A stretch of DNA of 42,965 nt from the sequence record NZ_CP050991.1. One strand, given 5' to 3'. The first letter of the stretch is position 1, and every line of letters starts with the position of its first letter. This DNA is from a plasmid. The position numbers were made by a program, and so were the translations under genes. Of this stretch, positions 10,967 to 27,124 are shown piece after piece. The notes under the pieces are model-generated. The model was not told the DNA's origin, did no database searches, and saw nothing but the letters and a program-made list of their open reading frames with translations.

Positions 10967-11230
10967 ATGCACTACCCCGTCCGCACTCTGGAGCAACTGC
11001 GCCCTCTATTGCTTGGCCTGCGCAAGGCGGCGGGGTTGACTCAAACTCAGCTGGCCGCGCGCCTCGGCGTGTCCCAGCAAAGCTACGCCCGGTTGGAAGC
11101 CAACCCCGCCGCCGCCAGCGTGGAACGCTTATACCGCGCGCTGCGGGCGCTGGATGCGGAGTTGGCGTTGTCCAGCCCCGGCTCCCCTCCTCCGCCATCA
11201 GCGGCGGATGCGCACGGAGAGGAGTGGTGA
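10967..11230 (+). CDS. hipB: HipB-like XRE-family HTH antitoxin/repressor
   Basis: 87 aa. LRKAAGLTQTQLAARLGVSQQSYARLE is a classic XRE helix-turn-helix. The stop is 2 nt before the hipA start. Confidence 0.7.
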   Translation: MHYPVRTLEQLRPLLLGLRKAAGLTQTQLAARLGVSQQSYARLEANPAAASVERLYRALRALDAELALSSPGSPPPPSAADAHGEEW

Positions 11231-11231
11231 C

Positions 11232-12581: not shown

Positions 12582-12830
12582 TTTGCGCCGTGACTGCAAA
12601 TGCCCTGCCCTGTCTCGCTGATTTCCTTGTCCTCAACGCTGTGATGTGGCTGATATCTTCGGTTCACCTGTCTGATTTGAATCATGGCAGCCGTGAATTC
12701 ACGGATATGTATTCAAAGCAGACGTCTCAGGCGTGCAAAACCAGATTGATCTGGGAATCTTTTAACAGGCGCGCATGTCATCACACCGTATCCGGCTCAG
12801 TTATTGGCAATGAGCCGGATATTAAGTTTT

Positions 12831-12856
12831 TAGTTAAAAAACGCGCGCATGTTACA
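12831..12856. repeat. ~25-bp element TAGTTAA[A/G]AA..ACGCGCGC[A/G]TGTTA. A second copy lies at 17384..17414, in direct orientation, bracketing the rep/par module
   Basis: Both copies read from the sequence. The second copy includes an a(CG)5t alternating tract at 17398-17409. Confidence 0.3.
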
Positions 12857-12885
12857 TCATCAAGTATTCATTTGTTGTCAGCTTG

Positions 12886-14067
12886 TTATTCACTCTTTTT
12901 GCGGCTGATTTCCCGTTGAAGGGTGGGTAATTTCCCGTAGTTTTGGCATGACGGGTGGTTGCTTTCCCGTCGCCCCGTCATGCGGCCGCATTTGAACCGT
13001 GGGTGAAGCGCCGGCAAGTGCGAATCCCGGTTGACTACCAGCAGCTGGTCCCGGCTGGCGTCCCACAACAGCTGATAGCCGGGGAAGGGACCTTCTGCCA
13101 GTACGGTTTTCAACATGCGGCGGAATTCGCGCCGGCTTGCCTGGCTGCCGCTTTTCAGATGCAAGGCGTCTATGCCTATGCGCCATTCCCGCTGCCGGCC
13201 GCAATGTTTGCGCGCCAGCTCGTAAAGGCGCTTGGCCAAGGGTTTCCGCAGCTGCAGATAGCCGGGATGCAGACTCAGCACTCGACGTTGCTGCACCGCG
13301 TCCAGCAACCAGGGAGACAGTTCGACTTCTATTTGCAGCTCTCCGGAAGAAATGAGCTTGGTCCAGCTTGCCAACAACGGTTGCTGGATGTCCTTCAAGC
13401 CCTCCTGCCGATAGTCGAATTCGGTATTGCATAAGCGTTGGAGACTTTTCTCCACTGCTCGGTAACTACGACCACCCTGGTCTCTCCCGGTATCGCGCAA
13501 GAAACCAGCAATGCCGAAACGTAAGCGGTTCGGCAGTGGGCCCGTCGCGCCAAATTGGTGTTGGCATAACTGGGAGCAAAAATAAACCAATAGTTCACGG
13601 TCATAGACCGTTGCCCGACCCAGGGTCGAGTCTCTTAGCTGAATGCTGAGTTGGCGGCTGCCATCACGATTTTGCCATTGCCAAATCCCAGGGATATCTC
13701 GGCAACTCAGCGCGAACAGCGGTAATTCCAAGCTGAAGTTGTCGCTTTTCCAAGAACGCGTTTCCAAGGCCTCCAAAGGCGCTTGCGGCAAGATGGCGCA
13801 TGGGATGGTGGATAAGGGGTCAGGCGCAGTTTTACTGAAGGAAAGCAATCGCAATAGCAGGGCTAAGCGCTGTTCTGCTTTTTGTTTGAGAAATTGTAAT
13901 TGAACCCCATCCTGCTTTTCCTTGGCGAGTAACCAGCTGATTTGTTCCGGCAGCGTCAACAAGACATGCAAGGCCATTTCTCGTTGAGCTTGTTGATTCA
14001 ACAAGCGTAGATAGTTTTTTCGTTGTTCCTTCGGCAGTTGAAGGAACTGCTGCAGCAAGCTGTCCAT
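12886..14067 (-). CDS. Plasmid replication initiator, RepA/TrfA-like family (paralog 2)
   Basis: 393 aa. The C-terminal region KPLAKRLYELARKHCGRQREWRIGIDALHLKSGSQASRREFRRMLKTVLAEGPFPGYQL is clearly paralogous to NKPLERRLYEIARKHVGRQSKWQISLEALWKKSGSLSPLKKFKHQLKQSIADDALPGYSY in the 16170..17120 gene. Lower GC than its surroundings. Confidence 0.55.
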   Translation of the reverse strand: MDSLLQQFLQLPKEQRKNYLRLLNQQAQREMALHVLLTLPEQISWLLAKEKQDGVQLQFLKQKAEQRLALLLRLLSFSKTAPDPLSTIPCAILPQAPLEALETRSWKSDNFSLELPLFALSCRDIPGIWQWQNRDGSRQLSIQLRDSTLGRATVYDRELLVYFCSQLCQHQFGATGPLPNRLRFGIAGFLRDTGRDQGGRSYRAVEKSLQRLCNTEFDYRQEGLKDIQQPLLASWTKLISSGELQIEVELSPWLLDAVQQRRVLSLHPGYLQLRKPLAKRLYELARKHCGRQREWRIGIDALHLKSGSQASRREFRRMLKTVLAEGPFPGYQLLWDASRDQLLVVNRDSHLPALHPRFKCGRMTGRRESNHPSCQNYGKLPTLQREISRKKSE

Positions 14068-14280
14068 AATTTAAATTGATATCTTTCAAGATTAAAAATC
14101 TTGCTTAATAGCAGATATCGCTTAACGCTTGAGATATTCAACTCATAAAGCGGCCTGATTGAGCTTGAATCAAGCTGCTACGACAGCGCGCAATAGCATG
14201 CTGAATGGGAAAACATGTGAAGAATGGATCGTTCGCTGCTCTCCTACGATGCCTGTGGGTAGAGGCAAGCGATCGTTTCC

Positions 14281-14293
14281 GGGGGGGGGGGGG
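14281..14293. repeat. Homopolymeric G13 tract in the divergent repA2/parA promoter region
   Basis: 13 consecutive G read from the sequence. Such tracts are hypermutable (slipped-strand mispairing), but a sequencing or assembly artefact is also possible. Confidence 0.5.
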
Positions 14294-14334
14294 AGTTTTG
14301 CCGTTTGATGGGGGTGTCCAAACGGGTTGCGACA

Positions 14335-14353
14335 GTGTAGCAAGTTGCTACAC
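14335..14353. promoter_or_regulatory. 19-bp perfect palindrome GTGTAGCAAGTTGCTACAC upstream of parA. Candidate parS/centromere or ParB operator. A second copy lies at 16141..16158
   Basis: Palindrome read from the sequence. The same sequence with a one-base difference at the centre sits between parB and repA1. Confidence 0.45.
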
Positions 14354-14417
14354 TCGGCTGGACTTTCTTTTTTTGCCGGCGTATCTTACACGGAAATAAA
14401 GCCTATCGAACACGGTA

Positions 14418-15257
14418 TTGGACAAAGATATGACTCAAGTCATTGCAGTCGCAAACCATAAAGGGGGATGCGGCAAGACTACCACGGTGATCAATCTAGC
14501 CGCCGAATTCGCCCGCATCGGCCTGAATGTCCTGGTGGTGGACATGGATCCGCAAGCCAACGCCAGCCTTCATTTGGGCAAGAAACATCCCAGCGAGGTG
14601 CCAATCACCTGCGCCGAACTGCTGTTGTCGGAAGTGGAGAAACTGCCGGCGGCCATCTACGAAGACAACCACATTCCCGGCGTCGGCCTGATCTACGGTT
14701 CGTTGCAGCTAGGCAAGGCTGAAGACGAATTGAAGGACGACACGCCGCGCCCATCGGAAGAACTGAGGCAGAAGCTGGCGCCGTTGATGGGTTTGTACGA
14801 CGTGATCCTGATCGATTGTCCGCCCAGCCTGAAATTGCTGACCAGCAATGCGCTGGCGGCTTCCACCCACGTGATCATTCCGATCGAGTCCGGCTCCCAG
14901 TATGGCATGTACGGCATGACCGATCTGCTGCGTCATGTCAACCGCATCCGCCGCATCAATCCCCAGCTGGAACTGTTGGGTGCCTTGTTGGTGAAGCATG
15001 ATGAGCGGCAGACGGTTTGCCGTTTGATCGAAGCGGCCGCGCGGGAGCAGATAGGCAAACTGTTGCCGATCCGCATTCCCACCAGCACCCGGGTCAACCA
15101 GGCCGCGATGGCGCAGACCAGTTTGCACAGCCTGGACCGCAGCGCCAAGGTCACACGTGAATTCCGCGCGCTGGCGCAGTTGCTGGCACAGCAGTTGCAG
15201 CTGCAAGCCACGTCTCAATTGGAAGAAGATGTAGAAATCAATGGCGAAGAATCTTAA
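14418..15257 (+). CDS. parA: ParA/Soj-family partition ATPase
   Basis: 279 aa. IAVANHKGGCGKTTT is a deviant Walker A (KGGxGKT). Overlaps parB. Confidence 0.85.
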   Translation: MDKDMTQVIAVANHKGGCGKTTTVINLAAEFARIGLNVLVVDMDPQANASLHLGKKHPSEVPITCAELLLSEVEKLPAAIYEDNHIPGVGLIYGSLQLGKAEDELKDDTPRPSEELRQKLAPLMGLYDVILIDCPPSLKLLTSNALAASTHVIIPIESGSQYGMYGMTDLLRHVNRIRRINPQLELLGALLVKHDERQTVCRLIEAAAREQIGKLLPIRIPTSTRVNQAAMAQTSLHSLDRSAKVTREFRALAQLLAQQLQLQATSQLEEDVEINGEES

Positions 15258-16146
15258 AGCGATGTTGGCCAAGAAACTGGCCGAGAACAATCTGCGTCAC
15301 CGCGAGTCGCCGCAGGAAACCGAATTCGACGAAGGCCGCCAGCATGTGCGGCTGGATCTCGATCTGATCGATCCCAACCCTTATCAGCCGCGACGCAGCT
15401 TTCCACAACAAGAGCTGAATGCGCTGGCGTCTTCGATCGCGGAAACCGGCCTGCTGCAGCCGGTCACCGTGCGCAAACATGAAGGTCGTTATCAGCTGAT
15501 CGCCGGCGAGCGCCGTTTGCGGGCGCACGAGCTGCTGGGCAAAGCCAGCATCGAGGCGATCGTGGTACCGTCGGAGGACGCCGATCTGGCGGTATTCGCG
15601 CTGGCGGAGAACATTGATCGCCAGGATTTGGCCGATTATGAAATCGGCCTGGCTTTGCGCCGCATCGAAAACCTGTTTCCATCGAAGAAGAAATTGGCGG
15701 AATCGCTGGGCTTGAATCGCGAGGATATGTACCGCTACTTCGCGTTCGAGGCTTTGCCAGAGCGCTGGCGGGCAAGACTGGATCAGGAACCGCGTTTGCT
15801 GTCACGGTCGGCAGCCAGCGAATTGAAGCGTCTGTTGGAACAGACGCCGCCCAGTCCGGAGCTGGACATCGCTTTGGATCTGGCTTGGTCCCTGCTGGAG
15901 CAGGGATCGTTGGAACAGGGGAAAATGGCCGGCTTCATCAACCGGCAGTTGCAGCAGCAAGACGTCAGCCGTCCCCTGCCCTCGCAAAGACAGGCCTGGA
16001 AATTGGCCAGGGCGGGCCAGCAGGTGGGTTCGATGTCGCGAGACGACAAGCATGTGATGTTGAAGCTCAAGGCCGGTGTGTTGAACGATGAGGAAATCGT
16101 TCAATTGGAGCAGTTCGTCCGTCAGCTATTGAGTCATGAAGTGTAG
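15241..16146 (+). CDS. parB: ParB/Spo0J-family partition protein
   Basis: 301 aa. QPVTVRKHEGRYQLIAGERRLRAHELLG is the ParB N-domain hallmark (GERRxRA). Confidence 0.85.
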   Translation: MAKNLKAMLAKKLAENNLRHRESPQETEFDEGRQHVRLDLDLIDPNPYQPRRSFPQQELNALASSIAETGLLQPVTVRKHEGRYQLIAGERRLRAHELLGKASIEAIVVPSEDADLAVFALAENIDRQDLADYEIGLALRRIENLFPSKKKLAESLGLNREDMYRYFAFEALPERWRARLDQEPRLLSRSAASELKRLLEQTPPSPELDIALDLAWSLLEQGSLEQGKMAGFINRQLQQQDVSRPLPSQRQAWKLARAGQQVGSMSRDDKHVMLKLKAGVLNDEEIVQLEQFVRQLLSHEV

Positions 16147-16158
16147 CAACTTGCTACA
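16141..16158. promoter_or_regulatory. Second copy of the parS-like palindrome (GTGTAGCAACTTGCTACA), between parB and repA
   Basis: Read from the sequence. Nearly identical to 14335..14353. Confidence 0.45.
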
Positions 16159-16169
16159 GGAGTGAGACG

Positions 16170-17120
16170 ATGTCGGATCTGTTTGTGCAGGAAGACGAGC
16201 AGCCGGAACAGAACCCGTTGCTGACTCAGTTGCAGGCGATCAGCCAGAAGGCGAAGCAGCGGCGTTCGGAAAGCAGCATCGCGCCGATCAAGAATCCACA
16301 GCGAGACTTCTTTGTCGCCGATTTTGTCGACTACACCTTCAAAGACGATGTGGCGACGATGGATGCGCCCTTTTTCAGCCTGTCGACCAAGACGGATCGT
16401 AATATTTTCCGCTGGGAGAGTCCGGATGCTCGCCGCTATGTGGAAGTGGCGCCGTCGGCTTTTGGCCGGGCCACCATGTTGGACAAAGACGTGTTGATCT
16501 TCCTGGCCAGCCAGGTGACGGCGGCGCGCAATGCCGGCGCCGAGATCAGCCGCACCGTGCGTTTTGTCGCCCATGATTTCCTGGTCAGCACCAATCGCGA
16601 TACCAGCCGTAACGGGTACAAGGGTTTAAAGGATGCGTTGACGCGTTTGCGGGGCACTACCATCCGCACCAATATCCGTACCGGCGATCGGGAAATCACC
16701 CATATTTTCGGCTTGATAGAGTCCGCTCAGATCATCGCGGCTGAACGCAGCGGCCGGATGAGCGCGGTGGAGGTGACCTTATCGGAATGGTTGTGGCGGG
16801 CCTTGGCCTCGTTCGAGGTATTGAGTATCGATGAAGCCTATTTCCGTTTGAACAAGCCTTTGGAGCGGCGCTTGTATGAGATTGCCCGCAAGCATGTGGG
16901 GCGTCAAAGCAAGTGGCAGATCAGTCTGGAGGCGCTTTGGAAGAAATCGGGCTCGCTCAGCCCATTGAAGAAGTTCAAGCACCAGCTGAAGCAAAGCATC
17001 GCGGATGACGCGCTGCCTGGCTACAGTTACCGGCTCAACGCGGATGACTCGGTGAGCTGCTTTCCTAAAAACAACGCTCCAGCCGTGGACGAGGTGACGC
17101 GGCGCTTGGTCCAGCCCTGA
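16170..17120 (+). CDS. repA: Plasmid replication initiator, RepA/TrfA-like family (paralog 1)
   Basis: 316 aa. GGAG ribosome-binding site upstream. Paralog of 12886..14067 (see above). Followed by an AT-rich region and iterons. Confidence 0.6.
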   Translation: MSDLFVQEDEQPEQNPLLTQLQAISQKAKQRRSESSIAPIKNPQRDFFVADFVDYTFKDDVATMDAPFFSLSTKTDRNIFRWESPDARRYVEVAPSAFGRATMLDKDVLIFLASQVTAARNAGAEISRTVRFVAHDFLVSTNRDTSRNGYKGLKDALTRLRGTTIRTNIRTGDREITHIFGLIESAQIIAAERSGRMSAVEVTLSEWLWRALASFEVLSIDEAYFRLNKPLERRLYEIARKHVGRQSKWQISLEALWKKSGSLSPLKKFKHQLKQSIADDALPGYSYRLNADDSVSCFPKNNAPAVDEVTRRLVQP

Positions 17121-17456
17121 GTGGCTGAAAGCGACACGAATCGTGGCGGGCCGCTACACACTTCGTGATTACAGGAACCTGTTTTCGCCGTTTAGCGTTT
17201 TCGCCTTTTGGCTGATTCTGTTTTTTCAGACCAAAGGCCTGGGACGGCGTTTGGTTTTTCTTGCTTGCCTGGGCAGTTCGACAGCGCCGCCTGCTCTTTC
17301 CGGCTTGTTGACGACGTTTTTTTGCAGACTTCTACTGATTTGTCCGTGTTGTGGAGCGTTTGCTTACCAGGTGCTGTTATTTATAGTTAAGAAGTTAACG
17401 CGCGCGCGTGTTAGGAAATCAGGATGCCTTGTCTAGCAAGGCTTTGAGGGTAGATT

Positions 17457-17565
17457 GGGTTCCTGACTTCACGATGTCGCGGTTCCTGCATTCTCGAACG
17501 TTTGTTCCTGCGTTCACGAATCAGGGTTCCTGGCTTCCCGAAACGGGTTCCTGGCTTCCCGAAAC
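17457..17565. repeat. Five direct iterons (core GGTTCCTG; the last two copies are identical 21-mers GGGTTCCTGGCTTCCCGAAAC) spaced 21-23 bp, at the end of an AT-rich stretch (17121-17456). Candidate oriV
   Basis: Core starts at 17458, 17481, 17503, 17525 and 17546. T-runs and lower GC upstream. Confidence 0.6.
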
Positions 17566-18021
17566 AGTTGTCGCGTGGCTCGCCAAGGCGTACCAATCCT
17601 GCCAGCCTATCAATGCTTCCCGCCATTGCTGGCAGCGGGCGTAGTTGTGGCTGACGGTATCGAGAGCGGCAAGGTCATCAGTGGCAAGGGCGCGATCAGC
17701 AGCTCCGGCGGCGGGCTGGGTAGGGGCGGACAGATTGGCCGCGGCGTCGTGCTGCAGGCGCCAAGCAGCAGGCAGCACAATACGTTGGCGGTAATGCTGG
17801 CGGTAGGCTTCAAGATTGCGCTCCAGGGATTGGACTTGTTTGTCGTGCTGCAGCTGCAGCCATTTTTGCTGCTGGGCCAGGTCCGTGAGCCGAGTTTGCC
17901 ACTGCCGCTGCTCGCCCAGCTGTCGCTGTTCCGCTTGGTACTGGGCGCGCCGCTCGCCGGTTTGGAAACCGGACAAGAAGGCTAGCAGCAGGAAAATCAG
18001 TGCCAGAAGCAGTTTGTTCAT
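17521..18021 (-). CDS. Rz-like i-spanin (N-terminal transmembrane helix plus periplasmic coiled coil)
   Basis: 166 aa from ATG 18021: MNKLLLALIFLLLAFLSGF, then a Gln/Arg/Glu-rich coiled coil. ATGA overlap with the upstream transglycosylase gene. The C-terminal 14 aa are encoded by the iterons, so the true stop may be earlier. Confidence 0.5.
   Translation of the reverse strand: MNKLLLALIFLLLAFLSGFQTGERRAQYQAEQRQLGEQRQWQTRLTDLAQQQKWLQLQHDKQVQSLERNLEAYRQHYRQRIVLPAAWRLQHDAAANLSAPTQPAAGAADRALATDDLAALDTVSHNYARCQQWREALIGWQDWYALASHATTVSGSQEPVSGSQEP
17610..17813 (-). CDS. Rz1-like o-spanin lipoprotein embedded out of frame inside the Rz-like gene
   Basis: 67 aa: MKPTASITANVLCCLLLGAC-STTPRPICPPLPSPPPELLIAPLPLM. 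Lipobox LLGAC followed by a proline-rich mature part, the classic embedded Rz1 architecture. Confidence 0.5.
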   Translation of the reverse strand: MKPTASITANVLCCLLLGACSTTPRPICPPLPSPPPELLIAPLPLMTLPLSIPSATTTPAASNGGKH

Positions 18022-19046
18022 GAGCGGGCCGTTGCGTCCAGGAAGCGATAGCGGCCGCGTCGTTTCAGCATGATGTTGCTCACATACTCGCGGCTGATGC
18101 CATAGAACGAGCGCTGGCCGTATCCCGCCTTGCGGCTGGGGCCATCGGCCTTCTCGACATTGCCGAACCAGCGCGAGGGGTCGCAATCGTCCTGTGCCGC
18201 GCAGCGGCTGCGGCTGATGGCCAGCATGCCTGGCCCGGCGTTGTAGCAGTTGAGCGCCATGGCCAGGCGCTCGGCTTCGTCGGCCGCGCCGCGCACCGGG
18301 TCATAACAGCGCTTGTCCTGCAGCACCAGCGCCCGCGCCTGCAGCCTGGCGTCGTAGGGTTTGTCCCAAGACCAGCCGGCCAGCAAGCGGCTGTGCTGGC
18401 GCTTCAAGTCGCTCAGGGTGTCGAAGCGAGCGGTGCGCGTCACCTGTCCCAGGCCCACGCCGCGTTCGCGCGGCGTTTTCAATTCCGCCCGCTCCGACCA
18501 GCAGGATTTCGACTTCAGGCTGGGGCAGGTTTCCTGTTCCACCTGCGCGGCCAGCACCGAGGGCGCAGGATGATCCGGCCACAACGCCCGCTGTTCGCCG
18601 ATGACAATGGGCAGGTTGCGATAGGCGTTGTCCGGCAAGCCGCCGGGCAGGGCGGCGGCATGGCCGGGGGAAATGAACATGAGCACGAAGGCCAGCAGCA
18701 GGCAGGCTTTGAACATGACTACCGCGGCAAACACGATGGCGGAGGCCAACGGCTCGCGTTGAGCCGAAGCCAGCAGCAGACCCAGCTGCACGCGGGGAAA
18801 CAAGATGCGGCGCAGCACATGGCCGAGCAGCACCATCGCCGCCAGCACGAAGGCCAGCGCCGACAGCAGGTCGCCCGGCGTGCCGGACCAGGACAGGCGG
18901 TTGAGCGCCAGCAGGCTGGCGCCGCCGACCAGGGCCAGCAGCAGCAGCCGCGCGCAATCGCTTGCCAGATCGCGGCGCAGATGATGCAGCGCCTGCCAGT
19001 GGCGGCGGCCGGCTAGCCGCAAACGGGTCGATAGCAATGACAACAT
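18018..19046 (-). CDS. Membrane-anchored lytic transglycosylase (SLT domain), endolysin-like
   Basis: 343 aa from ATG 19046 (GAGG upstream). N-terminal hydrophobic segments, then a C-terminal SLT-like domain (QVEQETCPSLKSKSCWSERAELKTPRERGVGLGQVTR...ALNCYNAGPG). Confidence 0.7.
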   Translation of the reverse strand: MLSLLSTRLRLAGRRHWQALHHLRRDLASDCARLLLLALVGGASLLALNRLSWSGTPGDLLSALAFVLAAMVLLGHVLRRILFPRVQLGLLLASAQREPLASAIVFAAVVMFKACLLLAFVLMFISPGHAAALPGGLPDNAYRNLPIVIGEQRALWPDHPAPSVLAAQVEQETCPSLKSKSCWSERAELKTPRERGVGLGQVTRTARFDTLSDLKRQHSRLLAGWSWDKPYDARLQARALVLQDKRCYDPVRGAADEAERLAMALNCYNAGPGMLAISRSRCAAQDDCDPSRWFGNVEKADGPSRKAGYGQRSFYGISREYVSNIMLKRRGRYRFLDATARS

Positions 19047-19126
19047 GGAAGCCTCGCTTGGAAGAGGGGGCGGGGACCGGACCCGGCGGTCCGGCGAAGA
19101 GGGGAGGCGGCCAGCGCCGCCGGGGC

Positions 19127-19438
19127 TTACTTGAAGCTGGATTTCAGCCACAGCCACACGGCGGCCACCGCCACGCCAACGGTAAACATCCAGCGCGCGA
19201 CGTGGCCCAGCGCGCGCAGCAAGTTGAACGCGCCGCGCGTGGTTTCCCACGCTTCCAGCAAATCGCGCAGGTCATGCAGGGTGGCGTTCAGCTCATCCAG
19301 TGTTTTCTGCTGGGTGTCGCGCTGGCGCACCACTTCGGCCAGGGTGGCTTCGGTGGTGGCCAGTCTTTGTTCCAGGCCGCGCCAACGCTCGTCGTGGTGA
19401 AACGCCGACGAGGGAACGGCGTTGCTGCGTTCAGACAT
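19127..19438 (-). CDS. Small C-tail-anchored membrane protein with a cytoplasmic coiled coil. Possible holin/antiholin-like lysis regulator
   Basis: 103 aa. One C-terminal transmembrane helix (WMFTVGVAVAAVWLWL). Position immediately upstream of the transglycosylase and spanin genes. Confidence 0.3.
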   Translation of the reverse strand: MSERSNAVPSSAFHHDERWRGLEQRLATTEATLAEVVRQRDTQQKTLDELNATLHDLRDLLEAWETTRGAFNLLRALGHVARWMFTVGVAVAAVWLWLKSSFK

Positions 19439-20186
19439 GCATCAGCCCTTGCAACACGCGCTCCCAATCGGCTTGCTGGGCGGTGGGCGCGTCGCCGAAC
19501 CAGTCCCAGCCCAGATAGCTGACGCGGCCGCTGCCGTAAGGGAAGCTGGCTACCACCGGGTTGCCGCCCTCGTCCACGTACAGGACCTGGGCGGCGCTGG
19601 ACGGAGGACAGATCAGGGCGTTGGTGGCGTTCTGCCCGATCAGCGCCTCGGGCAGGTCGGCGGGCAGATTCGGTATCTGCGGCGCCTCCACCTTGCTCAG
19701 CGTCTTGCCACCGGCATCCGCGCCGGCGGTGACGTTCAGACCGAACAGATTCAGCAGGCCGATGGAGCTGGCCTCCGTGGCGCTGCCGTAAAACAGCAGC
19801 ATGTGGCCGCCATCGGCGACAAAGCGTCGCAACAAGGTCTGGCTGTCTGCGGACAAGTCCGCGAACATGGAGCCGGTTTCCAGTTCCGGTATCAGCAACG
19901 TGCGGCAACCGGCCAGGCCGGCGGTCAACCCGCTGACGGAAATGTCGGAAAATGTCTGATAGCTGAGGCGCAGACGGCTGGAAAGCATGGTTTTGAGATT
20001 GTCGGCCTCGTCATTCTGATATTTGTCGTTCTTCATCAGGCTGATTCCCGTGAGCAGAGGACAGGCCCGGCCGTTCAACCAGGCGTACAGGCCGGTTATA
20101 GGCTGCGCCGCGCCCGAGGGGCCGGCATGCCAAAGCGGCGGATTCAGCAGCTGCGCGCCGCTTGGGGAGGCTCGGTATAGCGCCAT
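19431..20186 (-). CDS. Hypothetical protein immediately downstream of the fibre-like gene (possible fibre-associated or assembly factor)
   Basis: 252 aa from ATG 20186. 2-nt gap after the fibre gene and 8-nt overlap with the next gene. No confident motif. Confidence 0.3.
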   Translation of the reverse strand: MALYRASPSGAQLLNPPLWHAGPSGAAQPITGLYAWLNGRACPLLTGISLMKNDKYQNDEADNLKTMLSSRLRLSYQTFSDISVSGLTAGLAGCRTLLIPELETGSMFADLSADSQTLLRRFVADGGHMLLFYGSATEASSIGLLNLFGLNVTAGADAGGKTLSKVEAPQIPNLPADLPEALIGQNATNALICPPSSAAQVLYVDEGGNPVVASFPYGSGRVSYLGWDWFGDAPTAQQADWERVLQGLMHV

Positions 20187-20187
20187 G

Positions 20188-21468
20188 TCAACCCGCCTTG
20201 TAAGTGGCGACCAACAGCGCGCCGGCGGCGAGGGCTGCCTGCACCGCCTGCAGCGTCTGATCCGCCGTGGCGGCTTCCGCAACAAACACGATGCGCTGGT
20301 TCAAATAGCCGGCGTCCAGCTGGCCATAGTTCACGCCTAGTCCGCCGGCGCCGAGCGTCAACGGCGACGCCGCGTTGATCTTCAGGCCGTTGCCGTCCAC
20401 CGCCAGGCCGCTGTTGGCGGCCAGCTTCACGTTGACGGGGCCGCCGCTGGCGTCCAGGCCGTTGCCGGCGACGATCTTGACGCCGGCGCCATCGGCGGCG
20501 AGTCCCGAGCCGGTCGACACTTTCAGTCCTGCCGCGTCCACCGCCAGGCCGCTGTTGGCGGCCAGCTTCACGCTGACGGCGCTGCCGCTGGCATCCAGGC
20601 CGTTGCCGGCAGCCACCGACACGCCGCTGTCGGTGATGGCGATGCCGTTGCCCGCGTCCACCGCCAGGCCCTTGCCATCTACCTGCAGGCCGCTGCCGGC
20701 CGCCAGTTTCAGATTCAGATTCAGGCCCTGCTTGGCCAGGCCGTTGCCGGCGCGCAGGTAGTCCAGGTCGGTGCGATAGGTCCAGCTGGGTTTGGCCGGG
20801 TCGCCGTCCATCACCCACAGCGTGCCGCCGTAAACGCCGCCATCGGTCGCCATCACCGCGGTGCCGCGCTCCAGCTCGTAATAGGGATCGCCGTCCAGCT
20901 CCGGCGCGCGGGTCCAGCCGCCGGCCTGCACTACCCACAGCACATTGTCCGGGTGGCTATCCTGGCCGCCGCTGCCGCCCTGGCGTGTGGCCAGCACCCT
21001 GTCGCCGGCCTGCAGCGGCACGCCGTCCGCCGCCGGCGGAATGCCGCTCAGCGCGGTCGGGTGGGTCAGCACCGCGCGCGCCTGGGCGCGCAGCGTCAGG
21101 CCCAGCGCCGCGTTGCTGACAAACTGGCTGACGGCGCTGGCGGTGACCAGCTGCTGATCGGGCTGGCTGGCCAGATTGATGTCTTGATTGACGACGCCGC
21201 TGACGGACGGGCCGGTGGCCAGTTGCAGCGCGCCGCTGACCGCCAGATTGCCGGTCACGTTGACAGCGTCTTTGCCGTTGTTGCCCAGCGCGATGGCCAC
21301 GGACTGGCCGTCCGGGCTGGTCACGCTGATGTGGTCGTCGACCTGGTTCAGGCTGGCGTCGAACACATTGGCGAAATCGCTGGCGGTGGGTTTCTTGCCC
21401 GCCTGGAAACTCGTCTTGAGCGCGCTGCGGGTGAGAGGATTGGCGGTGTCTGGCATGTAGATATCCAT
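20188..21468 (-). CDS. Tail-fibre-like protein (short second fibre)
   Basis: 426 aa. The N-terminus KTSFQAGKKPTASDFANVFDAS shares a K..F..PT[GA]SDFA..DA motif with the large fibre (36118..39885). Internal AGNGL/AANSGLAVD repeats, with ~130-bp nucleotide repeats at 20389-20470 and 20535-20615. Confidence 0.55.
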   Translation of the reverse strand: MDIYMPDTANPLTRSALKTSFQAGKKPTASDFANVFDASLNQVDDHISVTSPDGQSVAIALGNNGKDAVNVTGNLAVSGALQLATGPSVSGVVNQDINLASQPDQQLVTASAVSQFVSNAALGLTLRAQARAVLTHPTALSGIPPAADGVPLQAGDRVLATRQGGSGGQDSHPDNVLWVVQAGGWTRAPELDGDPYYELERGTAVMATDGGVYGGTLWVMDGDPAKPSWTYRTDLDYLRAGNGLAKQGLNLNLKLAAGSGLQVDGKGLAVDAGNGIAITDSGVSVAAGNGLDASGSAVSVKLAANSGLAVDAAGLKVSTGSGLAADGAGVKIVAGNGLDASGGPVNVKLAANSGLAVDGNGLKINAASPLTLGAGGLGVNYGQLDAGYLNQRIVFVAEAATADQTLQAVQAALAAGALLVATYKAG

Positions 21469-21636
21469 TCTGAGAGGGCGGGCGCCACCCAGGCCCGCGG
21501 CGGGCGAACAAACCGGATTAGGGAGTCGGTGTTTGAAGCGGAATTTCGCCCTGGAGCCAGGGCTTGGGTGGCGTGGACATTATGGCAAAGGGCTCGTGCG
21601 CGCGGCCGGCGGCGGCCCACGCCCGGTGTAGCCACG

Positions 21637-23523
21637 TCAGGCGGTGGCGGCTGGCTGGCTGAGCAGCCGCTGCGAGCGCCGGTTGCCGGCCCACACCTCG
21701 GTGCGGTACTGGCCGTCCAGCAGCGCCAGCGCCTGGCGCGCGATGCCGCGCTCGCGCCATTCCGGCGCGATGAGCACGCACAGATTGCGTCCGCCGTCCG
21801 CCTCGTCGCGCAGCGAGAAAAAGCCCAGCAGGCCGGCGTCCGGGTGCAGGATGGCCAGCAATTGGTTATCCGGATTGTCCCGCTCCGCCTCGATCCAGGC
21901 GGCGGCGGCTTCCGGCTCCGACAGATCCGGCAGCCGCGTCAGCGCCATGTCGTGCGGCCGGCGGCAGGCCCAGGCCAGCTCGCGGGCGTGATGCGGGCAC
22001 AGCGGCGACAGGCGCAGGCCGTCCGCGGCGGCGGCCTCCGCCGGCAGATCGGCGCGCCAGGCGTCGAAACGGCGGCGCAGCTTGACGGTTTTGGGGTGGT
22101 CCGGCTCGGCCTCTTCCAGGGCGGCCAGGATGTCGGCGGCCAGCGCCGCGTCGCCGACCAGCATTTCCAGCAACGCCAGATTGTGCAGCGCCGGACCGGC
22201 CGGCGCGTCGTGGCGCAGCGCGTCGAGAAAGGCTGCGCGCGCCGCGCCGTAATGCGCCAGCCGCATCGCCAGGCAGCCCAGGTCGAAGTGGTGGCTGCCG
22301 CCTGGCAGGCTGCGCGCCCAGGCACGATCCAGCGCTTGGCGCCAGGCCGGGCGTTGCTCGGCGGATATCGGCAAGGCCTGCAGCGCGTCCAGATGGCGGG
22401 CCAGCCAGCGCGGGTTGTGGCCTTGGCGGACCAGCGCGTCCAAGCTGGGCGCGTCGCCGCCGTCCAGGATCTCGCCGGCGGTTTCCGGCAGCGCCAGCCG
22501 CGTCAGCGGCCATGGCCGATGGCCGGGCTGCAGCACGCCGCACAGCAGCAGCGCGTCCTCTTCCGGGTTCAGGCGCATATTCAGCGCCGGCCAGCGCCAG
22601 GTCAGCGCCTCGGCGTTCAACGGCAGGATCGGATCCAGCGCGGCGGGCAGCGCGGTCGGCAGCCGGCCGCCGTGTCCCTGGTCGGCCAGATACAGCAGCA
22701 CGCCGTCCGGATGCGCCGCCGCCAGCGCGTCCGCGTGCTGGAACAAGGCCAGCGGCAGCGACGCCACGCCGACATCGGCGCGGCCCTGCTGCCGCGCCGC
22801 CAGCGCCTGCTCGTTTTCGGCGGCGAACAGCGGTGCGTGGACGGCGGCCGGCAGCGGCCCGCCCACGTTCAACGCAACAATGGCCTCGGACGCGGCGTCC
22901 GCCGGCTCCAGCCGCCAGCGCGGGCCGTCCTCGCACACCGCCACGCTGGCGCGCCAGGCCGCGCCGTAATGGCACCAGGCCACGCGCGCAGGCCGCCGGC
23001 TGTAATGGCCGTGGGCGATCAGCGCGGCGTGGCGGCCCGGCTGCGGCGCCGGATCGCCATCGGCCAGCTGCCAGACGCCGTCGGCCAGCAGCCGGGTGAT
23101 GGGCGGATGCCCGGCCAATCGCGGCAGCGCGTGATACAGCCGGAAAACCAGCGGCGGCAAGGCCATCTCGCCGGCTAGATCCAGCAGATTGCACCACAAC
23201 TGCCAGGCGAAGTCGCCGTCGTGGCTGCCGGGCAGGTGCACGGTCAGCGGCGCGTCGCCGTCGGCGGCGCCGTCCAGCAGAAAAGCCAGCAGCAGCCGCG
23301 CGGCGGCCAGGCTGCCGCCGCCGTGATTGGGCAGGGCCGGCGGCAAGGCCGCCAGATCCTCGCGCCACAAGGGTGCGTCTTCATAGGCCTGGGCTGGAAT
23401 GTGCGCGTCTATGCGCGAAACCGGCGGCGGCAGCGGGGCTTCCGGGGTCAAATCGGGCGAGGCGGCGGCATGGCTCAGGCGCAGCGGATGCGCGCCGGCC
23501 GGCAAGGAGGAGGCTGTGGTCAT
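21637..23523 (-). CDS. Large TPR-like protein with a C-terminal GNAT-acetyltransferase-like domain
   Basis: 628 aa. The C-terminus LCVLIAPEWRERGIARQALALLDGQYRTEVWAGNRRSQRLL resembles a GNAT motif A/B region. TPR-like helical repeats upstream. Confidence 0.35.
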   Translation of the reverse strand: MTTASSLPAGAHPLRLSHAAASPDLTPEAPLPPPVSRIDAHIPAQAYEDAPLWREDLAALPPALPNHGGGSLAAARLLLAFLLDGAADGDAPLTVHLPGSHDGDFAWQLWCNLLDLAGEMALPPLVFRLYHALPRLAGHPPITRLLADGVWQLADGDPAPQPGRHAALIAHGHYSRRPARVAWCHYGAAWRASVAVCEDGPRWRLEPADAASEAIVALNVGGPLPAAVHAPLFAAENEQALAARQQGRADVGVASLPLALFQHADALAAAHPDGVLLYLADQGHGGRLPTALPAALDPILPLNAEALTWRWPALNMRLNPEEDALLLCGVLQPGHRPWPLTRLALPETAGEILDGGDAPSLDALVRQGHNPRWLARHLDALQALPISAEQRPAWRQALDRAWARSLPGGSHHFDLGCLAMRLAHYGAARAAFLDALRHDAPAGPALHNLALLEMLVGDAALAADILAALEEAEPDHPKTVKLRRRFDAWRADLPAEAAAADGLRLSPLCPHHARELAWACRRPHDMALTRLPDLSEPEAAAAWIEAERDNPDNQLLAILHPDAGLLGFFSLRDEADGGRNLCVLIAPEWRERGIARQALALLDGQYRTEVWAGNRRSQRLLSQPAATA

Positions 23524-23584
23524 GGCGGTTGGGAGCAGGGCAGGGCGGGCGGGCGGCCCGCGGGATGGAATGGGGAGGAGGGGC

Positions 23585-23833
23585 TTAGCCGCGCAGCTCG
23601 CGCGCCGGCGGCAAGGTCAGCTTGCCGGCGCGGCGCAGCCGGTGGCGGGCGTAAGGCGCGTAAATGCCTTTCCAGTCCACTTGGCCCAGGCTCAGCTCGA
23701 CGATTTTCAGCGCCTGTTGCGGGCTGGGCGCGCGCTCCATCCGCCGCCAGCTGCTGGCGGTGCGCAGGGCGACGCCGAATTGACGGGCGGCGGCTTCGTC
23801 GCCGATGCAGTGGATATAGACCGATAGTTCCAT
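23585..23833 (-). CDS. Cro/YdaS-like small HTH regulator
   Basis: 82 aa from ATG 23833. AAARQFGVALRTASSWRR...IVELSLGQVDW fits a Cro/YdaS-type helix-turn-helix. AT-rich promoter upstream. Confidence 0.4.
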   Translation of the reverse strand: MELSVYIHCIGDEAAARQFGVALRTASSWRRMERAPSPQQALKIVELSLGQVDWKGIYAPYARHRLRRAGKLTLPPARELRG

Positions 23834-23962
23834 GGCGGGGCTTCCGGTGGAATGTGGGCTGGCTGGCGCGTCCGGACAGCCGGTTTTCAGCCAGCACATC
23901 ATGCCATTTGGTTTAAGTTGTTTCAAATATCGACATGGATAATCCATGATATGACAAATGCC

Positions 23963-24160
23963 TTAATTTTCCGAGGCGCGCTCATAGCAGCCGGGAAAAT
24001 ACTCGCGCGCCAGTCCATTGCGCAGCAGCAGACGCACGGCGGCGCGTTCCGACGTGGTCAGCTTTTCGGCAGCCTGCGGTTTGCGCCGCAAACGCCGCAG
24101 CAGGCGGGGCAGGGCGGCGCGATCCGCGTCGAAAAATAAGCAATGCGCGCGTTTTTTCAT
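23963..24160 (-). CDS. Small basic hypothetical protein (possible regulator)
   Basis: 65 aa from ATG 24160 in an AT-rich context. No motif recognised. Confidence 0.2.
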   Translation of the reverse strand: MKKRAHCLFFDADRAALPRLLRRLRRKPQAAEKLTTSERAAVRLLLRNGLAREYFPGCYERASEN

Positions 24161-24375
24161 GGAAATTAATTGAATTGGCATCTCAGCCATTCTATGGCTT
24201 GCCGCCGCCGCCGGGCGCGGCCGCCTCCACCGTCTGTGAAAGACCGTGCCGCCCATCCGGTCATGGCTAGCCGGCGCGGCGGGTCAGAATGGGGGGAGGG
24301 GGCGATACCCGGCCGCCCTTGCATTCATGCAGTTTGCCTCGCCGTCGGGCACAGGAAATGGCCTGTGGCGGATGG

Positions 24376-27026: not shown

Positions 27027-27124
27027 GGTGAGCTCCAGAAAAAACAGCTGCGATAAGCGGCGCCGGCGTCCGCGGGGCCGGGTGAAATACGGCGCTGGGG
27101 CGCGATGCCCAGCGGGCAAATTGC

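What the first reader, a model, noticed from the sequence alone, without database searches (positions are those of the whole stretch)
17521..19438. Lambda-style lysis cassette (transglycosylase, Rz with embedded Rz1) next to the eCIS: likely release mechanism
What the sequence shows. A membrane-anchored SLT-domain lytic transglycosylase (18018-19046) overlaps by ATGA an Rz-like protein (N-terminal transmembrane helix plus coiled coil, 17521-18021). Inside that gene, in another frame on the same strand, lies a 67-aa ORF (17610-17813) with a textbook lipobox (LLLGAC) followed by a proline-rich sequence, the embedded Rz1 o-spanin architecture. A small C-tail-anchored membrane protein (19127-19438) sits upstream and could act as holin or antiholin. 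Established knowledge. Extracellular contractile particles such as Afp, PVC, MAC arrays and R-tailocins are released by programmed lysis of producer cells. The embedded-spanin arrangement is a phage signature.
Basis: partly seen in the sequence, partly recalled or inferred. Interest (0 to 1): 0.6.

Follow-up and report, generated by a model that had tools for sequence, protein, structure and literature searches.

The report
Phage-type lysis cassette on eCIS plasmid
A Chromobacterium violaceum plasmid that encodes a phage-tail-like injection particle also carries, at the end of that gene cluster, a conserved phage-derived set of cell-bursting genes. These genes very probably let producer cells release the particles, which is an expected arrangement, although the parts are unusually fused.

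Summary
The window is a full 42,965-bp contig of a pChV1-type C. violaceum plasmid whose Afp/PVC-like eCIS cluster wraps around the contig ends.

- **Endolysin (19046->18018):** it has three N-terminal TM helices and a C-terminal domain with a family-1 lytic transglycosylase fold, closest to MltF, MltC, MltE and Slt70. It misses the Pfam SLT model.
- **i-spanin (18021->17521):** it has a TM helix followed by two long helices.
- **Embedded ORF (17813->17610, +1 frame):** it is a real o-spanin. The lipobox and Pro-rich mature sequence are conserved in six diverged relatives, and codon statistics show dual coding.

Two refinements:
- The three-TM N-domain matches a separately encoded protein, annotated "holin" (PHROG 8226), that sits just upstream of this endolysin family in phages. 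The plasmid protein is therefore a holin-like/endolysin fusion.
- The 103-aa tail-anchored protein belongs to a small uncharacterised family. That family also occurs in two prophage lysis cassettes.

The cassette is linked to eCIS genes in Chromobacterium, Iodobacter, Parachitinimonas and related contigs. More distant relatives sit in prophages. A role in particle release is inferred, not shown. The concept is already known from R-tailocins and Afp.

The parts
19127..19438 (-). 103-aa tail-anchored protein (p103). It has a roughly 79-aa helical, probably cytoplasmic domain, one C-terminal TM (aa 80-98) and a 5-residue tail. It is a candidate lysis timer: antiholin, releasin-like factor or holin.
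   Evidence: Hydropathy is. Its start overlaps the stop of the upstream gene (ATGTCTGA). Homologues at 62-71% identity lie directly upstream of the TM-endolysin in all eCIS relatives, and homologues also occur in prophage cassettes L002 and L059. There is no Pfam, PHROG or NCBIfam family.
18657..19046 (-). N-terminal holin-like domain of the 342-aa protein (aa 1-130). It has a basic cytoplasmic N-terminus and three TM helices. TM3 ends in a small-x-Ala motif (PGHA|A).
   Evidence: TM segments are and the helices. It matches phiR1-37 g290 by BLASTP at 8e-10 and phrog_8226 'holin' at 3.5e-4. A profile of the domain finds a fused or directly adjacent copy at essentially every locus that encodes this endolysin family, including the Bordetella phage MW2 'holin' at 1.9e-6.
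18018..18656 (-). Catalytic domain of the 342-aa protein (aa about 131-342). It has a family-1 lytic transglycosylase (goose-lysozyme-like) fold and is predicted to be periplasmic.
   Evidence: The AF2 model has pLDDT 89. The top Foldseek PDB hits are MltF, MltC, MltE, Slt70 and phiKZ gp144. Invariant residues are E172 in EQE-T-C, the GLGQ motif (Gly198, Gly200 and Gln201 invariant), Tyr268 and Gly271 of YNxG, and four Cys. tblastn gives 76 phage records annotated as endolysin, and phrog_669 endolysin scores 4e-15.
17521..18021 (-). i-spanin (Rz-like), 166 aa. It has an N-terminal TM and two long periplasmic helices joined by a linker. The last ~15 residues are encoded by plasmid iterons.
   Evidence: It overlaps the endolysin stop by ATGA. 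AF2 gives helices 2-98 and 108-153 and a disordered tail. Weak hits are phrog_8821 and phrog_6197 'Rz-like spanin' at 1.5e-3 and 8.5e-3. It is conserved in relatives.
17610..17813 (-). o-spanin (Rz1-like), 67 aa, wholly embedded in the +1 frame of the i-spanin gene. The signal peptide carries lipobox LGAC. The mature 48-aa protein is Pro-rich and has a second Cys at mature position 8.
   Evidence: Supported.
19431..20186 (-). 251-aa protein of unknown function lying between the fibre-like gene and p103. It is translationally coupled on both sides and links the cassette to the eCIS late genes.
   Evidence: Junctions are. It is conserved in L006, L013 and L014. The only family hit is a weak DUF4350 match.
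17457..17565 (.). Five 21-23-bp iteron-like direct repeats next to repA. Two of them lie inside the 3' end of the i-spanin gene. They mark the junction between the cassette and the plasmid backbone.
   Evidence: Supported. repA (RPA family) at 16170-17120 is.

Best explanation
This is a phage-derived multigene lysis cassette captured by an Afp/PVC-like eCIS on a pChV1-type plasmid. It most likely bursts the producer cell to release assembled particles.

**Proposed sequence of events.**
1. The cassette is expressed with the late eCIS genes. The genes for the fibre-like protein, p251 and p103 are coupled. An 80-nt gap follows, and then the endolysin gene, which is coupled to the Rz/Rz1 gene pair.
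2. The 342-aa protein inserts into the inner membrane with its N-terminus in the cytoplasm. Its three-TM holin-like domain carries the transglycosylase domain to the periplasmic face, using TM3 as the export signal. The small-x-Ala motif after TM3 suggests that signal peptidase may then separate the two halves.
3. At a set time the holin-like domains permeabilise or depolarise the membrane, and the transglycosylase becomes free or active and cuts the murein. The tail-anchored p103 may modulate this timing.
4. The Rz/Rz1 complex, which spans the periplasm, removes the outer membrane.
5. The cell lyses and the particles escape.

**Shown by computation:** gene anatomy, fold, topology prediction, homology to phage lysis genes, conservation and dual coding of Rz1, and linkage to eCIS genes in several genera.

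**Inferred:** co-transcription, holin activity, signal-peptidase processing, the role of p103, and lysis-dependent release.
For: **Identity of the parts.**
- Phage relatives are annotated as endolysins and match phrog_669.
- The three-TM domain is either fused (28 loci) or encoded directly upstream (35 of the 37 split loci) wherever this endolysin family occurs. Annotated phage holins are among these.
- i-spanin anatomy is.
- o-spanin conservation, selection and profile match are.

**The whole cassette recurs in prophages.** Prophage L059 carries a three-TM protein, a secreted endolysin, a p103 homologue, and an Rz gene with an embedded lipoprotein ORF, next to an integrase. L002 carries p103, the fusion protein, and Rz/Rz1 after tail genes.

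**Linkage to eCIS.**
- The window holds sheath, tube, VgrG-like, gp25, spike tip, baseplate J, tape measure, AAA+ ATPase and Pvc16 genes, and no head or packaging genes.
- The same cassette lies beside eCIS genes in Chromobacterium sp. ASV5 / Xenophilus sp. AP218F, Parachitinimonas, Iodobacter plasmid pl1 and metagenomic contigs, at 62-78% endolysin identity.
- No terminator-like sites above chance occur in the region.

**Literature.** R-tailocins are released by holin, lysin and spanin. Afp on pADAP has a predicted lysis cassette. eCIS in general are thought to be released by phage-related cassettes (PMC10598620, PMC12961389, PMC10847046). Phage-tail-like particles were seen in mitomycin-treated C. 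violaceum in the 1970s, as cited in PMC5871888.
Against: - No experiment links this cassette to lysis or to particle release.
- 'Holin' for the three-TM family is an annotation (PHROG 8226, GenBank). I found no tested function, and the window's own match to phrog_8226 is weak (3.5e-4).
- Pfam SLT does not match the catalytic domain.
- No promoter was identified, and the simple scan is uninformative, so co-expression is only inferred from spacing.
- The i-spanin carries a 15-residue iteron-encoded C-terminal extension that is absent from homologues. In lambda the C-termini of Rz and Rz1 interact, so the extension could impair function in this particular plasmid.
- TM3 is strongly hydrophobic. 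Spontaneous SAR-type release is therefore unlikely, and the activation step is unknown.
- Some eCIS loci have no lysis cassette at all (PMC10598620), so lysis genes are not a universal requirement.
Confidence: 0.75

Rival explanations
1. The cassette is a leftover of the phage ancestor of the plasmid (a defective phage-plasmid, as the pChV1 paper proposed). It is carried along without a role in eCIS release and is possibly decaying.
For: Lima et al. 2018 considered pChV1 a P1-like or chimeric phage-plasmid (PMC5871888). The closest non-eCIS relatives are prophage cassettes. The i-spanin 3' end runs into the plasmid iterons, which looks like a junction scar.
Against: There are no head, portal or terminase genes on the whole plasmid. 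All cassette ORFs are intact. They are conserved at 39-78% identity across several genera, always beside eCIS genes, on plasmids and on larger contigs. The embedded o-spanin frame shows purifying selection. The catalytic residues are invariant.
Confidence: 0.1
2. The cassette works as a type-10-secretion-like or vesicle-producing system. It acts in a small subpopulation or only locally, and it releases the eCIS, or the plasmid-encoded nuclease toxins, without classical culture-wide lysis.
For: Holin, endolysin and spanin cassettes are used for Tc toxin release by a specialised subpopulation in Yersinia entomophaga, and the term T10SS has been proposed for this (PMC10847046, PMC10101115). The endolysin is membrane-tethered, which could confine its action.
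Against: At the single-cell level this is the same mechanism, namely lysis of the expressing cell. A spanin pair argues for complete envelope disruption. Nothing in the sequence speaks to population heterogeneity. No convincing invertible promoter was found next to the neighbouring invertase.
Confidence: 0.12
3. The transglycosylase is a specialised, non-lytic murein-remodelling enzyme, like those that accompany T3SS, T4SS and T6SS machines. It would make room for particle assembly or passage rather than lyse the cell.
For: It has a family-1 lytic transglycosylase fold closest to the housekeeping enzymes MltF, MltC and MltE, and it is permanently membrane-anchored by three TM helices.
Against: eCIS particles assemble in the cytoplasm and have no envelope-spanning stage. 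The enzyme family is annotated as endolysin in 76 phage genomes. It is always paired with the three-TM 'holin' module and followed by spanins.
Confidence: 0.03

Closest known systems
Phage lambda S-R-Rz/Rz1 lysis cassette
   Same: The gene order is membrane protein, muralytic enzyme (lambda R is also a transglycosylase), then i-spanin. The o-spanin is fully embedded in the +1 frame at nearly the same relative position, nt 208 of 501 here against 220 of 462 in lambda. The endolysin and Rz genes overlap by ATGA. In both, the o-spanin has a lipobox Cys, a second Cys about 8-10 residues later, and then a proline run.
   Different: No sequence homology to Rz or Rz1 is detectable. The endolysin is exported and membrane-anchored rather than cytoplasmic. 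The holin-like module is fused to it. There is an extra tail-anchored protein. The cargo is a tail-like particle, not a virion.
Lysis cassettes of Bordetella phage MW2 (Mesyanzhinovviridae) and Yersinia phage phiR1-37 (g290/g289), and of prophage L059
   Same: They have a homologous three-TM protein (PHROG 8226 'holin') and a homologous transglycosylase endolysin. L059 also has a p103 homologue and an Rz gene with an embedded lipoprotein ORF.
   Different: In these phages the two modules are separate genes, and the endolysin has its own cleavable-looking signal peptide. In the plasmid, and in 28 of 65 loci, they are one polypeptide in which TM3 takes the place of the signal peptide. None of these phage systems appears to have been tested experimentally in the literature I could search.
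R-type tailocin (pyocin) and Afp/pADAP lysis cassettes
   Same: These are phage-type lysis genes encoded beside a contractile tail-like particle cluster and are held responsible for release by producer lysis (PMC10598620, PMC12961389). Afp is also plasmid-borne.
   Different: The component families differ. According to PMC12961389 the Afp cassette is an endopeptidase, a holin and a lysozyme located upstream of the cluster. Here the cassette lies between the fibre-like gene and the sheath gene, and in pChV1 the plasmid backbone is inserted after it. The Afp/PVC class generally has far less evidence for dedicated lysis genes than the tailocins.
Phage Mu releasin gp25 (DUF2730)
   Same: Like p103, gp25 is a protein of about 100 aa that is almost entirely cytoplasmic. 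It is tethered by a single TM with only 4-5 residues in the periplasm, and it is encoded beside a membrane-anchored endolysin with a basic cytoplasmic N-terminus (PMC9239132).
   Different: The orientation is opposite, with an N-terminal TM in gp25 and a C-terminal TM in p103. There is no DUF2730 match. The partner endolysin here has three strongly hydrophobic TMs rather than a SAR domain. The resemblance is topological only.
Natural holin-endolysin fusion of Clostridium sporogenes (TpeE family)
   Same: [quoted passage not shown]
   Different: It is an unrelated holin family with one TM plus an amphipathic helix, from a Gram-positive host, and it has no spanins. In the TpeE model the fused endolysin is translocated by flipping of the holin's C-terminal end, whereas here TM3 is predicted to act as an export signal.

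Membership tests
Two-component spanin, embedded architecture (Rz/Rz1 type) | i-spanin: a single N-terminal TM helix with the rest in the periplasm, largely helical or coiled-coil | tested here: met
   The TM is at aa 4-22. AF2 gives helices 2-98 and 108-153 with a flexible linker.
Two-component spanin, embedded architecture (Rz/Rz1 type) | o-spanin: a small outer-membrane lipoprotein with a lipobox signal, no inner-membrane retention residue at +2, and a Pro-rich mature part | tested here: met
   The sequence is MKPTASITANVLCCLLLGA|C-S-T-T with 21% Pro. The lipobox Cys and CPPLPxPP motif are invariant in 5 relatives. SignalP and LipoP were not available.
Two-component spanin, embedded architecture (Rz/Rz1 type) | The o-spanin gene lies wholly inside the i-spanin gene in the +1 frame, and both frames are under selection | tested here: met
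   Position-3 divergence is 0.288, below all 55 controls, and +1-frame identity is 0.603, above all controls.
Two-component spanin, embedded architecture (Rz/Rz1 type) | Located immediately next to the endolysin gene | tested here: met
   There is an ATGA overlap. About half of the related loci scanned (roughly 35 of 67) have a lipobox ORF starting roughly 170-450 nt after the endolysin stop.
Two-component spanin, embedded architecture (Rz/Rz1 type) | Sequence homology to lambda Rz/Rz1 (not a requirement, since spanins are highly diverse) | tested here: not met
   hhalign gives probabilities of 0.5% and 2.4%. Pfam gives no hit. PHROG 'Rz-like spanin' hits are weak, at 1.5e-3 and 8.5e-3.
Two-component spanin, embedded architecture (Rz/Rz1 type) | The subunits bind through their C-termini and disrupt the outer membrane | not testable with these tools
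   This needs genetics or biochemistry.
Family-1 lytic transglycosylase (SLT / GH23-like) endolysin | Goose-lysozyme-like fold | tested here: met
   Foldseek against the PDB returns MltF at E 6e-4 with about 208 aligned columns, followed by MltC, MltE, Slt70 and phiKZ gp144. The model has pLDDT 89.
Family-1 lytic transglycosylase (SLT / GH23-like) endolysin | Catalytic Glu in an E-S/T motif, plus GLxQ and AYNxG motifs | tested here: met
   Glu172, Gly198, Gly200, Gln201, Tyr268 and Gly271 are invariant in 33 sequences, and Leu199 and Asn269 nearly so. Assigning the motifs to SLT family 1 rests on my own knowledge.
Family-1 lytic transglycosylase (SLT / GH23-like) endolysin | Match to the Pfam SLT model or to NCBIfam transglycosylase models | tested here: not met
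   Pfam gives no hit at E <= 0.1. NCBIfam MltF scores 0.09. The PDB profile search finds MltF at E 0.5.
Family-1 lytic transglycosylase (SLT / GH23-like) endolysin | Produces 1,6-anhydro-MurNAc ends and lyses cells from within | not testable with these tools
   This needs an enzyme assay.
Holin (PHROG 8226 family) | A small inner-membrane protein or module with at least one TM, encoded with the endolysin | tested here: met
   It has three TMs. It is fused here, and fused or adjacent at all 65 loci, immediately adjacent in 35 of the 37 split ones.
Holin (PHROG 8226 family) | Profile match to the family | tested here: inconclusive
   The window N-domain scores 3.5e-4 and 8e-4 against phrog_8226. 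The reverse profile hits MW2 'holin' at 1.9e-6 and L059 at 5.8e-7, and these two score 1e-53 and 3e-22 against phrog_8226. The link is therefore transitive.
Holin (PHROG 8226 family) | Timed, lethal permeabilisation of the inner membrane that can be triggered by energy poisons | not testable with these tools
   I found no experimental report for any member.
SAR (signal-anchor-release) endolysin | A single N-terminal, weakly hydrophobic, Gly/Ala/Ser-rich TM that leaves the membrane spontaneously | tested here: not met
   There are three TMs. TM3 has a Kyte-Doolittle mean of 2.77 over 19 residues and is rich in Leu, Phe and Val.
Mu-type releasin (DUF2730) | Match to PF10805 and an N-terminal TM with N-out/C-in topology | tested here: not met
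   p103 has no Pfam hit other than weak coiled-coil noise, and its TM is C-terminal.
Afp/PVC-like extracellular contractile injection system (context) | Sheath, tube, VgrG-like spike, gp25, baseplate J, CIS tape measure, AAA+ ATPase (Afp15-like) and Pvc16-like terminator genes, with no capsid genes | tested here: met
   No head or packaging families were found.

The most novel reading that the evidence does not exclude
The 342-aa protein is a self-exporting, two-in-one lysis protein. The third helix of a PHROG-8226-type holin serves as the signal peptide of the transglycosylase, and signal peptidase I cuts at the conserved small-x-Ala site. One translation product would then yield stoichiometric holin and periplasmic endolysin. 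The tail-anchored p103 family would be a new class of cytoplasmic-side lysis regulator, either a releasin-like factor or an antiholin, that sets the time of eCIS release. On this reading, fused and split versions of the same system would form a natural series for studying how secreted endolysins are held inactive.
Probability: 0.3. Interest if true: 0.55.

Novelty: new variant of a known kind. Interest (0 to 1): 0.4.

Why it matters
For Afp/PVC-type injection systems, which are now being engineered as protein-delivery tools, the release step is usually assumed rather than assigned to genes. Here a complete and conserved cassette is physically tied to such a system on a small plasmid of about 43 kb, in a culturable host. 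That makes lysis-dependent release directly testable by deletion and induction.

The work also gives a function to four 'hypothetical' pChV1 genes and to one gene that is not annotated at all (the o-spanin). It reframes pChV1, which was published as a possible P1-like phage-plasmid, as an eCIS plasmid that should kill the cell that expresses it.

The fused and split holin-like/endolysin family and the p103 family are uncharacterised lysis components that are widespread in proteobacterial prophages.

Tried and rejected
**Searches that found nothing useful**
- Pfam and NCBIfam scans of the four proteins gave no SLT, Rz, Rz1 or holin family.
- A sequence-profile search of the PDB gave only MltF at E 0.5, so fold comparison was needed.
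- hhalign of the Rz and Rz1 alignments against lambda Rz and Rz1 showed no homology. A pairwise BLAST against lambda gave only trivial proline matches.
- Pfam on split three-TM proteins gave only noise.
- The word-indexed homology searches for p103 and Rz returned only close relatives, all named 'hypothetical'.
- Literature searches found no paper that describes the pChV1 eCIS as such, or this lysis cassette, beyond 'putative bacteriophage lysis protein' for ORF_05.

**Scans that were uninformative**
- The promoter and terminator scan of 17000-24400 gave counts no different from shuffles, so it says nothing about operon structure.
- I looked for an invertible promoter near the invertase upstream of the sheath gene. 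It showed only short, imperfect inverted repeats.

I repeated it with database proteins.

**Readings considered and rejected**
- A SAR endolysin: there are three strongly hydrophobic TMs.
- The embedded ORF as a chance GC-rich ORF: rejected on conservation and dual-coding statistics.
- A separate internal start producing an independent secreted endolysin from Met112 (MFKACLLL...): this is possible, but the Met is not conserved in homologues.


Full report
**What the window is.** Bases 12800-20300 of the window are 98.5% identical to two 49-kb Chromobacterium violaceum plasmids. About 80% of that query is 98.4% identical to pChV1 of strain ATCC 12472, which is 44,212 bp. One protein search shows that the window's Rz-like protein occurs on a contig of exactly 42,965 bp, which is the window length. 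The window is therefore a whole plasmid contig.

Pfam scans find a complete Afp/PVC-like extracellular contractile injection system (eCIS) on the minus strand:
- sheath (9395->7980);
- two gp19-type tube proteins and a CIS_tube protein;
- a VgrG-like spike, gp25, the CIS spike tip and baseplate J (3604->437);
- past the contig end, two large proteins, the CIS tape measure (35597->33183), an AAA+ ATPase and Pvc16.

Putative payloads and a fibre-like protein follow. The annotated pChV1 record shows the same circular order. The backbone consists of two RPA-family replication initiators, ParA/ParB, HipA and a serine recombinase. It lies between the finding and the sheath gene. No head, portal or terminase family was found in any ORF.

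**The observation.** All ORFs are as described. Read on the minus strand, the junctions are tight:
- The fibre-like gene ends in TGA, and the ATG of a 251-aa gene follows after a single intervening base.
- That gene overlaps the 103-aa gene (p103) by ATGTCTGA.
- An 80-nt gap with a GAGG ribosome-binding site precedes the 342-aa gene.
- The 342-aa gene overlaps the 166-aa gene by ATGA.
- The 67-aa ORF has GGAG, a 7-nt spacer and a TTG start.

Hydropathy gives three TM segments in the 342-aa protein, one at the N-terminus of the 166-aa protein and one at the C-terminus of p103.

**The muralytic enzyme.** Pfam and NCBIfam do not recognise it. A PDB sequence-profile search reaches MltF only at E 0.5. 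PHROGs gives 'endolysin' (phrog_669) at 4e-15. tblastn finds 76 phage records, mostly annotated as endolysin, and one is annotated 'SAR endolysin transglycosylase'.

An AlphaFold model built on 33 homologues has pLDDT 89. Foldseek against the PDB returns MltF, MltC, MltE, Slt70 and phiKZ gp144, which are all family-1 lytic transglycosylases, over about 208 residues. The alignment shows an invariant Glu172 in EQE-T-C, the GLGQ motif with Gly198, Gly200 and Gln201 invariant, invariant Tyr268 and Gly271 of the YNxG motif, and four invariant cysteines. The cysteines fit a periplasmic, disulfide-bonded enzyme.

**The membrane anchor is a holin-like module.** The homologue alignment contains long forms of about 310-340 aa with three TMs, and short forms of about 210-255 aa with at most a signal-peptide-like N-terminus, and some with none.

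The N-terminal 135 residues match phiR1-37 g290 by BLASTP at 8e-10. g290 is a 116-aa three-TM protein encoded immediately upstream of the phiR1-37 endolysin g289. Bordetella phage MW2 has a 115-aa three-TM gene annotated 'holin' in the same place.

A profile of the N-domain, searched against all ORFs of 67 related loci, matched 65 of them. It is fused to the endolysin at 28 loci. At 35 of the other 37 it is a separate ORF ending just before the endolysin gene. The MW2 'holin' (1.9e-6) and g290 (2.7e-10) are among these.

The split proteins belong to PHROG 8226 'holin', with scores as strong as 1e-53. The window domain matches that family weakly, at 3.5e-4 to 8e-4. No Pfam family exists.

The plasmid protein is thus a natural fusion of this holin-annotated module with its endolysin. 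The positive-inside rule puts the very basic N-terminus and the TM2-TM3 loop in the cytoplasm, and the enzyme in the periplasm.

TM3 ends in a small-x-Ala motif in nearly all long forms (PGHA|A here; xRA, xHA or xKA elsewhere). This is exactly where the split endolysins carry their own signal-peptide cleavage-like site. I infer that TM3 serves as the export signal and may be cut by signal peptidase. This is a hypothesis. I found no experimental study of this holin family. The only natural holin-endolysin fusion I found in the literature is an unrelated clostridial one (PMC9527704).

**The spanins.** The 166-aa protein has an N-terminal TM. In an AlphaFold model it has two long helices (2-98 and 108-153) separated by a low-confidence linker. 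That is the anatomy of an i-spanin. PHROG 'Rz-like spanin' matches are weak.

The embedded ORF starts at nt 208 of 501 in the +1 frame. Lambda Rz1 starts at nt 220 of 462 in the +1 frame.

The same ORF is present in Chromobacterium sp. ASV5 / Xenophilus sp. AP218F, in three metagenomic relatives, in Parachitinimonas caeni (with an ATG start, MFKPILIVLSCLLTGAC) and in the Iodobacter plasmid. The consensus is L-[LT]-G-[AG]-C-S-T-T-P-x-P-x-C-P-P-L-P-x-P-P-x-x-L-L...L-M-T-L-P. In the lower-GC Iodobacter gene the +1 frame is broken by stops everywhere except over this ORF.

Across five sequences, the overlap region shows flat divergence over codon positions (0.27, 0.22 and 0.29). In 55 control windows of the endolysin gene, position 3 ranges from 0.40 to 0.53. 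Identity in the +1 frame is 0.60, against a control maximum of 0.54.

A profile built only from o-spanins of distant prophage cassettes ranks this segment first among 643 in the window (E 1.6e-4). About half of the related loci scanned (roughly 35 of 67) have a lipobox ORF starting roughly 170-450 nt after the endolysin stop. Neither protein is detectably homologous to lambda Rz or Rz1, so 'lambda-style' describes the architecture only.

**The 103-aa protein.** It has a helical N-terminal part of about 79 residues, one TM and a five-residue tail. Homologues at 62-71% identity sit directly upstream of the fusion gene in every eCIS relative. A family profile also finds it in two prophage-like cassettes:
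- In Chitinibacter (L002) it lies directly upstream of the fusion gene.
- In an Oxalobacteraceae MAG (L059) it lies between the endolysin and the spanins. There the order is three-TM protein, secreted endolysin, p103 homologue, then Rz with an embedded lipoprotein ORF, and integrase.

It is therefore a component of the lysis cassette rather than of the eCIS. It matches no curated family. Its topology is a nearly wholly cytoplasmic protein on a membrane tether, next to a membrane-anchored endolysin with a basic cytoplasmic N-terminus. That recalls the phage Mu releasin gp25, although the orientation is reversed and there is no homology (PMC9239132). Holin, antiholin and releasin-like roles all remain possible. 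I favour a regulatory role, because the three-TM module is the better holin candidate.

**Linkage to the eCIS.** I searched 65 related loci with the window's eCIS proteins. Only the close clade, with at least 62% endolysin identity, has eCIS genes next to the cassette:
- In Parachitinimonas (L019) and contig L013, the fibre-like gene, p251 (in L013), p103, the fusion gene and Rz are followed by a gene of about 370-390 aa and then sheath, tube and further genes.
- In Iodobacter fluviatilis plasmid pl1, Rz ends 252 nt before the sheath gene on the same strand.
- In the ASV5-type and L008 plasmids, as in pChV1, partition and replication genes follow Rz.

The circular order from fibre through cassette to sheath is therefore conserved, and only the position of the plasmid backbone differs. 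More distant relatives, at 54% identity or less, lie at the ends of prophage tail modules. The simplest history is capture of a prophage cassette by the ancestor of this Neisseriales eCIS clade.

**How it compares with what is known.** Release of R-type tailocins by holin, lysin and spanins is textbook. A lysis cassette is predicted upstream of Afp on pADAP. [quoted passage not shown]

The pChV1 paper listed ORF_05 as a 'putative bacteriophage lysis protein (COG4623)'. It left the neighbouring genes as hypothetical, did not see the embedded gene, and discussed the plasmid as a possible P1-like phage (PMC5871888). RefSeq annotates all of these genes as hypothetical.

The finding is therefore a correct identification of a known kind of arrangement. 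The composition is not described: a fused holin-like/transglycosylase, a p103 partner and embedded spanins.

**Limits.** Nothing here shows expression, lysis or release. The simple promoter and terminator scan is uninformative. The i-spanin of this plasmid ends in 15 residues (VSGSQEPVSGSQEP and flanking residues) that are encoded by two of the five iterons next to repA. These residues are absent from homologues and disordered in the model. Whether this affects spanin function is unknown.

Noticed in passing
window 17457-17565: Five iteron-like direct repeats (GGGTTCCTGnCTTCnCGAAnn, spaced 21-23 bp) lie downstream of repA. Two of them lie inside the coding 3' end of the Rz-like gene and encode a duplicated VSGSQEP tail. 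Homologues in other genera lack this tail.
   Followed up: partly
window 1-42965 (contig ends): The window is a complete 42,965-bp contig and a circular permutation of plasmid pChV1. The eCIS cluster runs off position 437 and continues from position 42959, so the cluster is contiguous only on the circle.
   Followed up: yes
window 9749-10372 (+) and 9395-9750: A serine recombinase / DNA invertase gene lies divergently, about 350 bp upstream of the sheath gene (the first eCIS gene). Only a short imperfect inverted repeat (9608-9624 / 9662-9678) was seen, and no clear invertible segment was found. Phase-variable control of the eCIS and lysis genes remains an open idea.
   Followed up: partly
window 12886-14067 (-) and 16170-17120 (+): There are two different RPA-family replication initiator genes on one 43-kb plasmid. 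They flank parA/parB (14418-16146).
   Followed up: no
window 11154-12581 (+): A HipA-family kinase toxin (HipA_C, Couple_hipA) sits on the plasmid backbone. It is presumably an addiction module, as noted in the pChV1 paper.
   Followed up: no
window 26472-27119 (-) and 27196-28809 (-): Two proteins have weak Endonuclea_NS_2 matches and lie between Pvc16 and the fibre-like gene, which is the usual payload position in eCIS loci. They are candidate nuclease effectors.
   Followed up: no
window 21637-23523 (-): A 628-aa protein has a C-terminal GNAT acetyltransferase-like domain. It is conserved at 58% identity in the ASV5-type plasmid, but there it is on the opposite strand relative to the cassette.
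   Followed up: no
window 36118-39885 (-): A 1255-aa protein in the Afp12/13 position has a bactofilin-like repeat match (7e-11). It is possibly a beta-helical fibre or baseplate extension.
   Followed up: no
window 19431-20186 (-): A 251-aa protein with only a weak DUF4350 match is translationally coupled between the fibre-like gene and p103. It is conserved in eCIS relatives (34-41% identity), and its function is unknown.
   Followed up: partly
L059 9866-11764; L002 9558-11544: Two prophage-like loci carry the same four modules as the plasmid cassette (three-TM protein, transglycosylase, p103-like protein, and an i-spanin gene containing a lipobox ORF). The order differs in L059, and the holin-like module is either split or fused.
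   Followed up: yes
L013 3510-4691; L019 11512-12627: In two relatives a gene of about 370-390 aa separates the lysis cassette from the sheath gene. In L013 it has a faint HTH_Crp_2 hit. It could be the local regulator of eCIS expression, and pChV1 has the plasmid backbone at this position instead.
   Followed up: no
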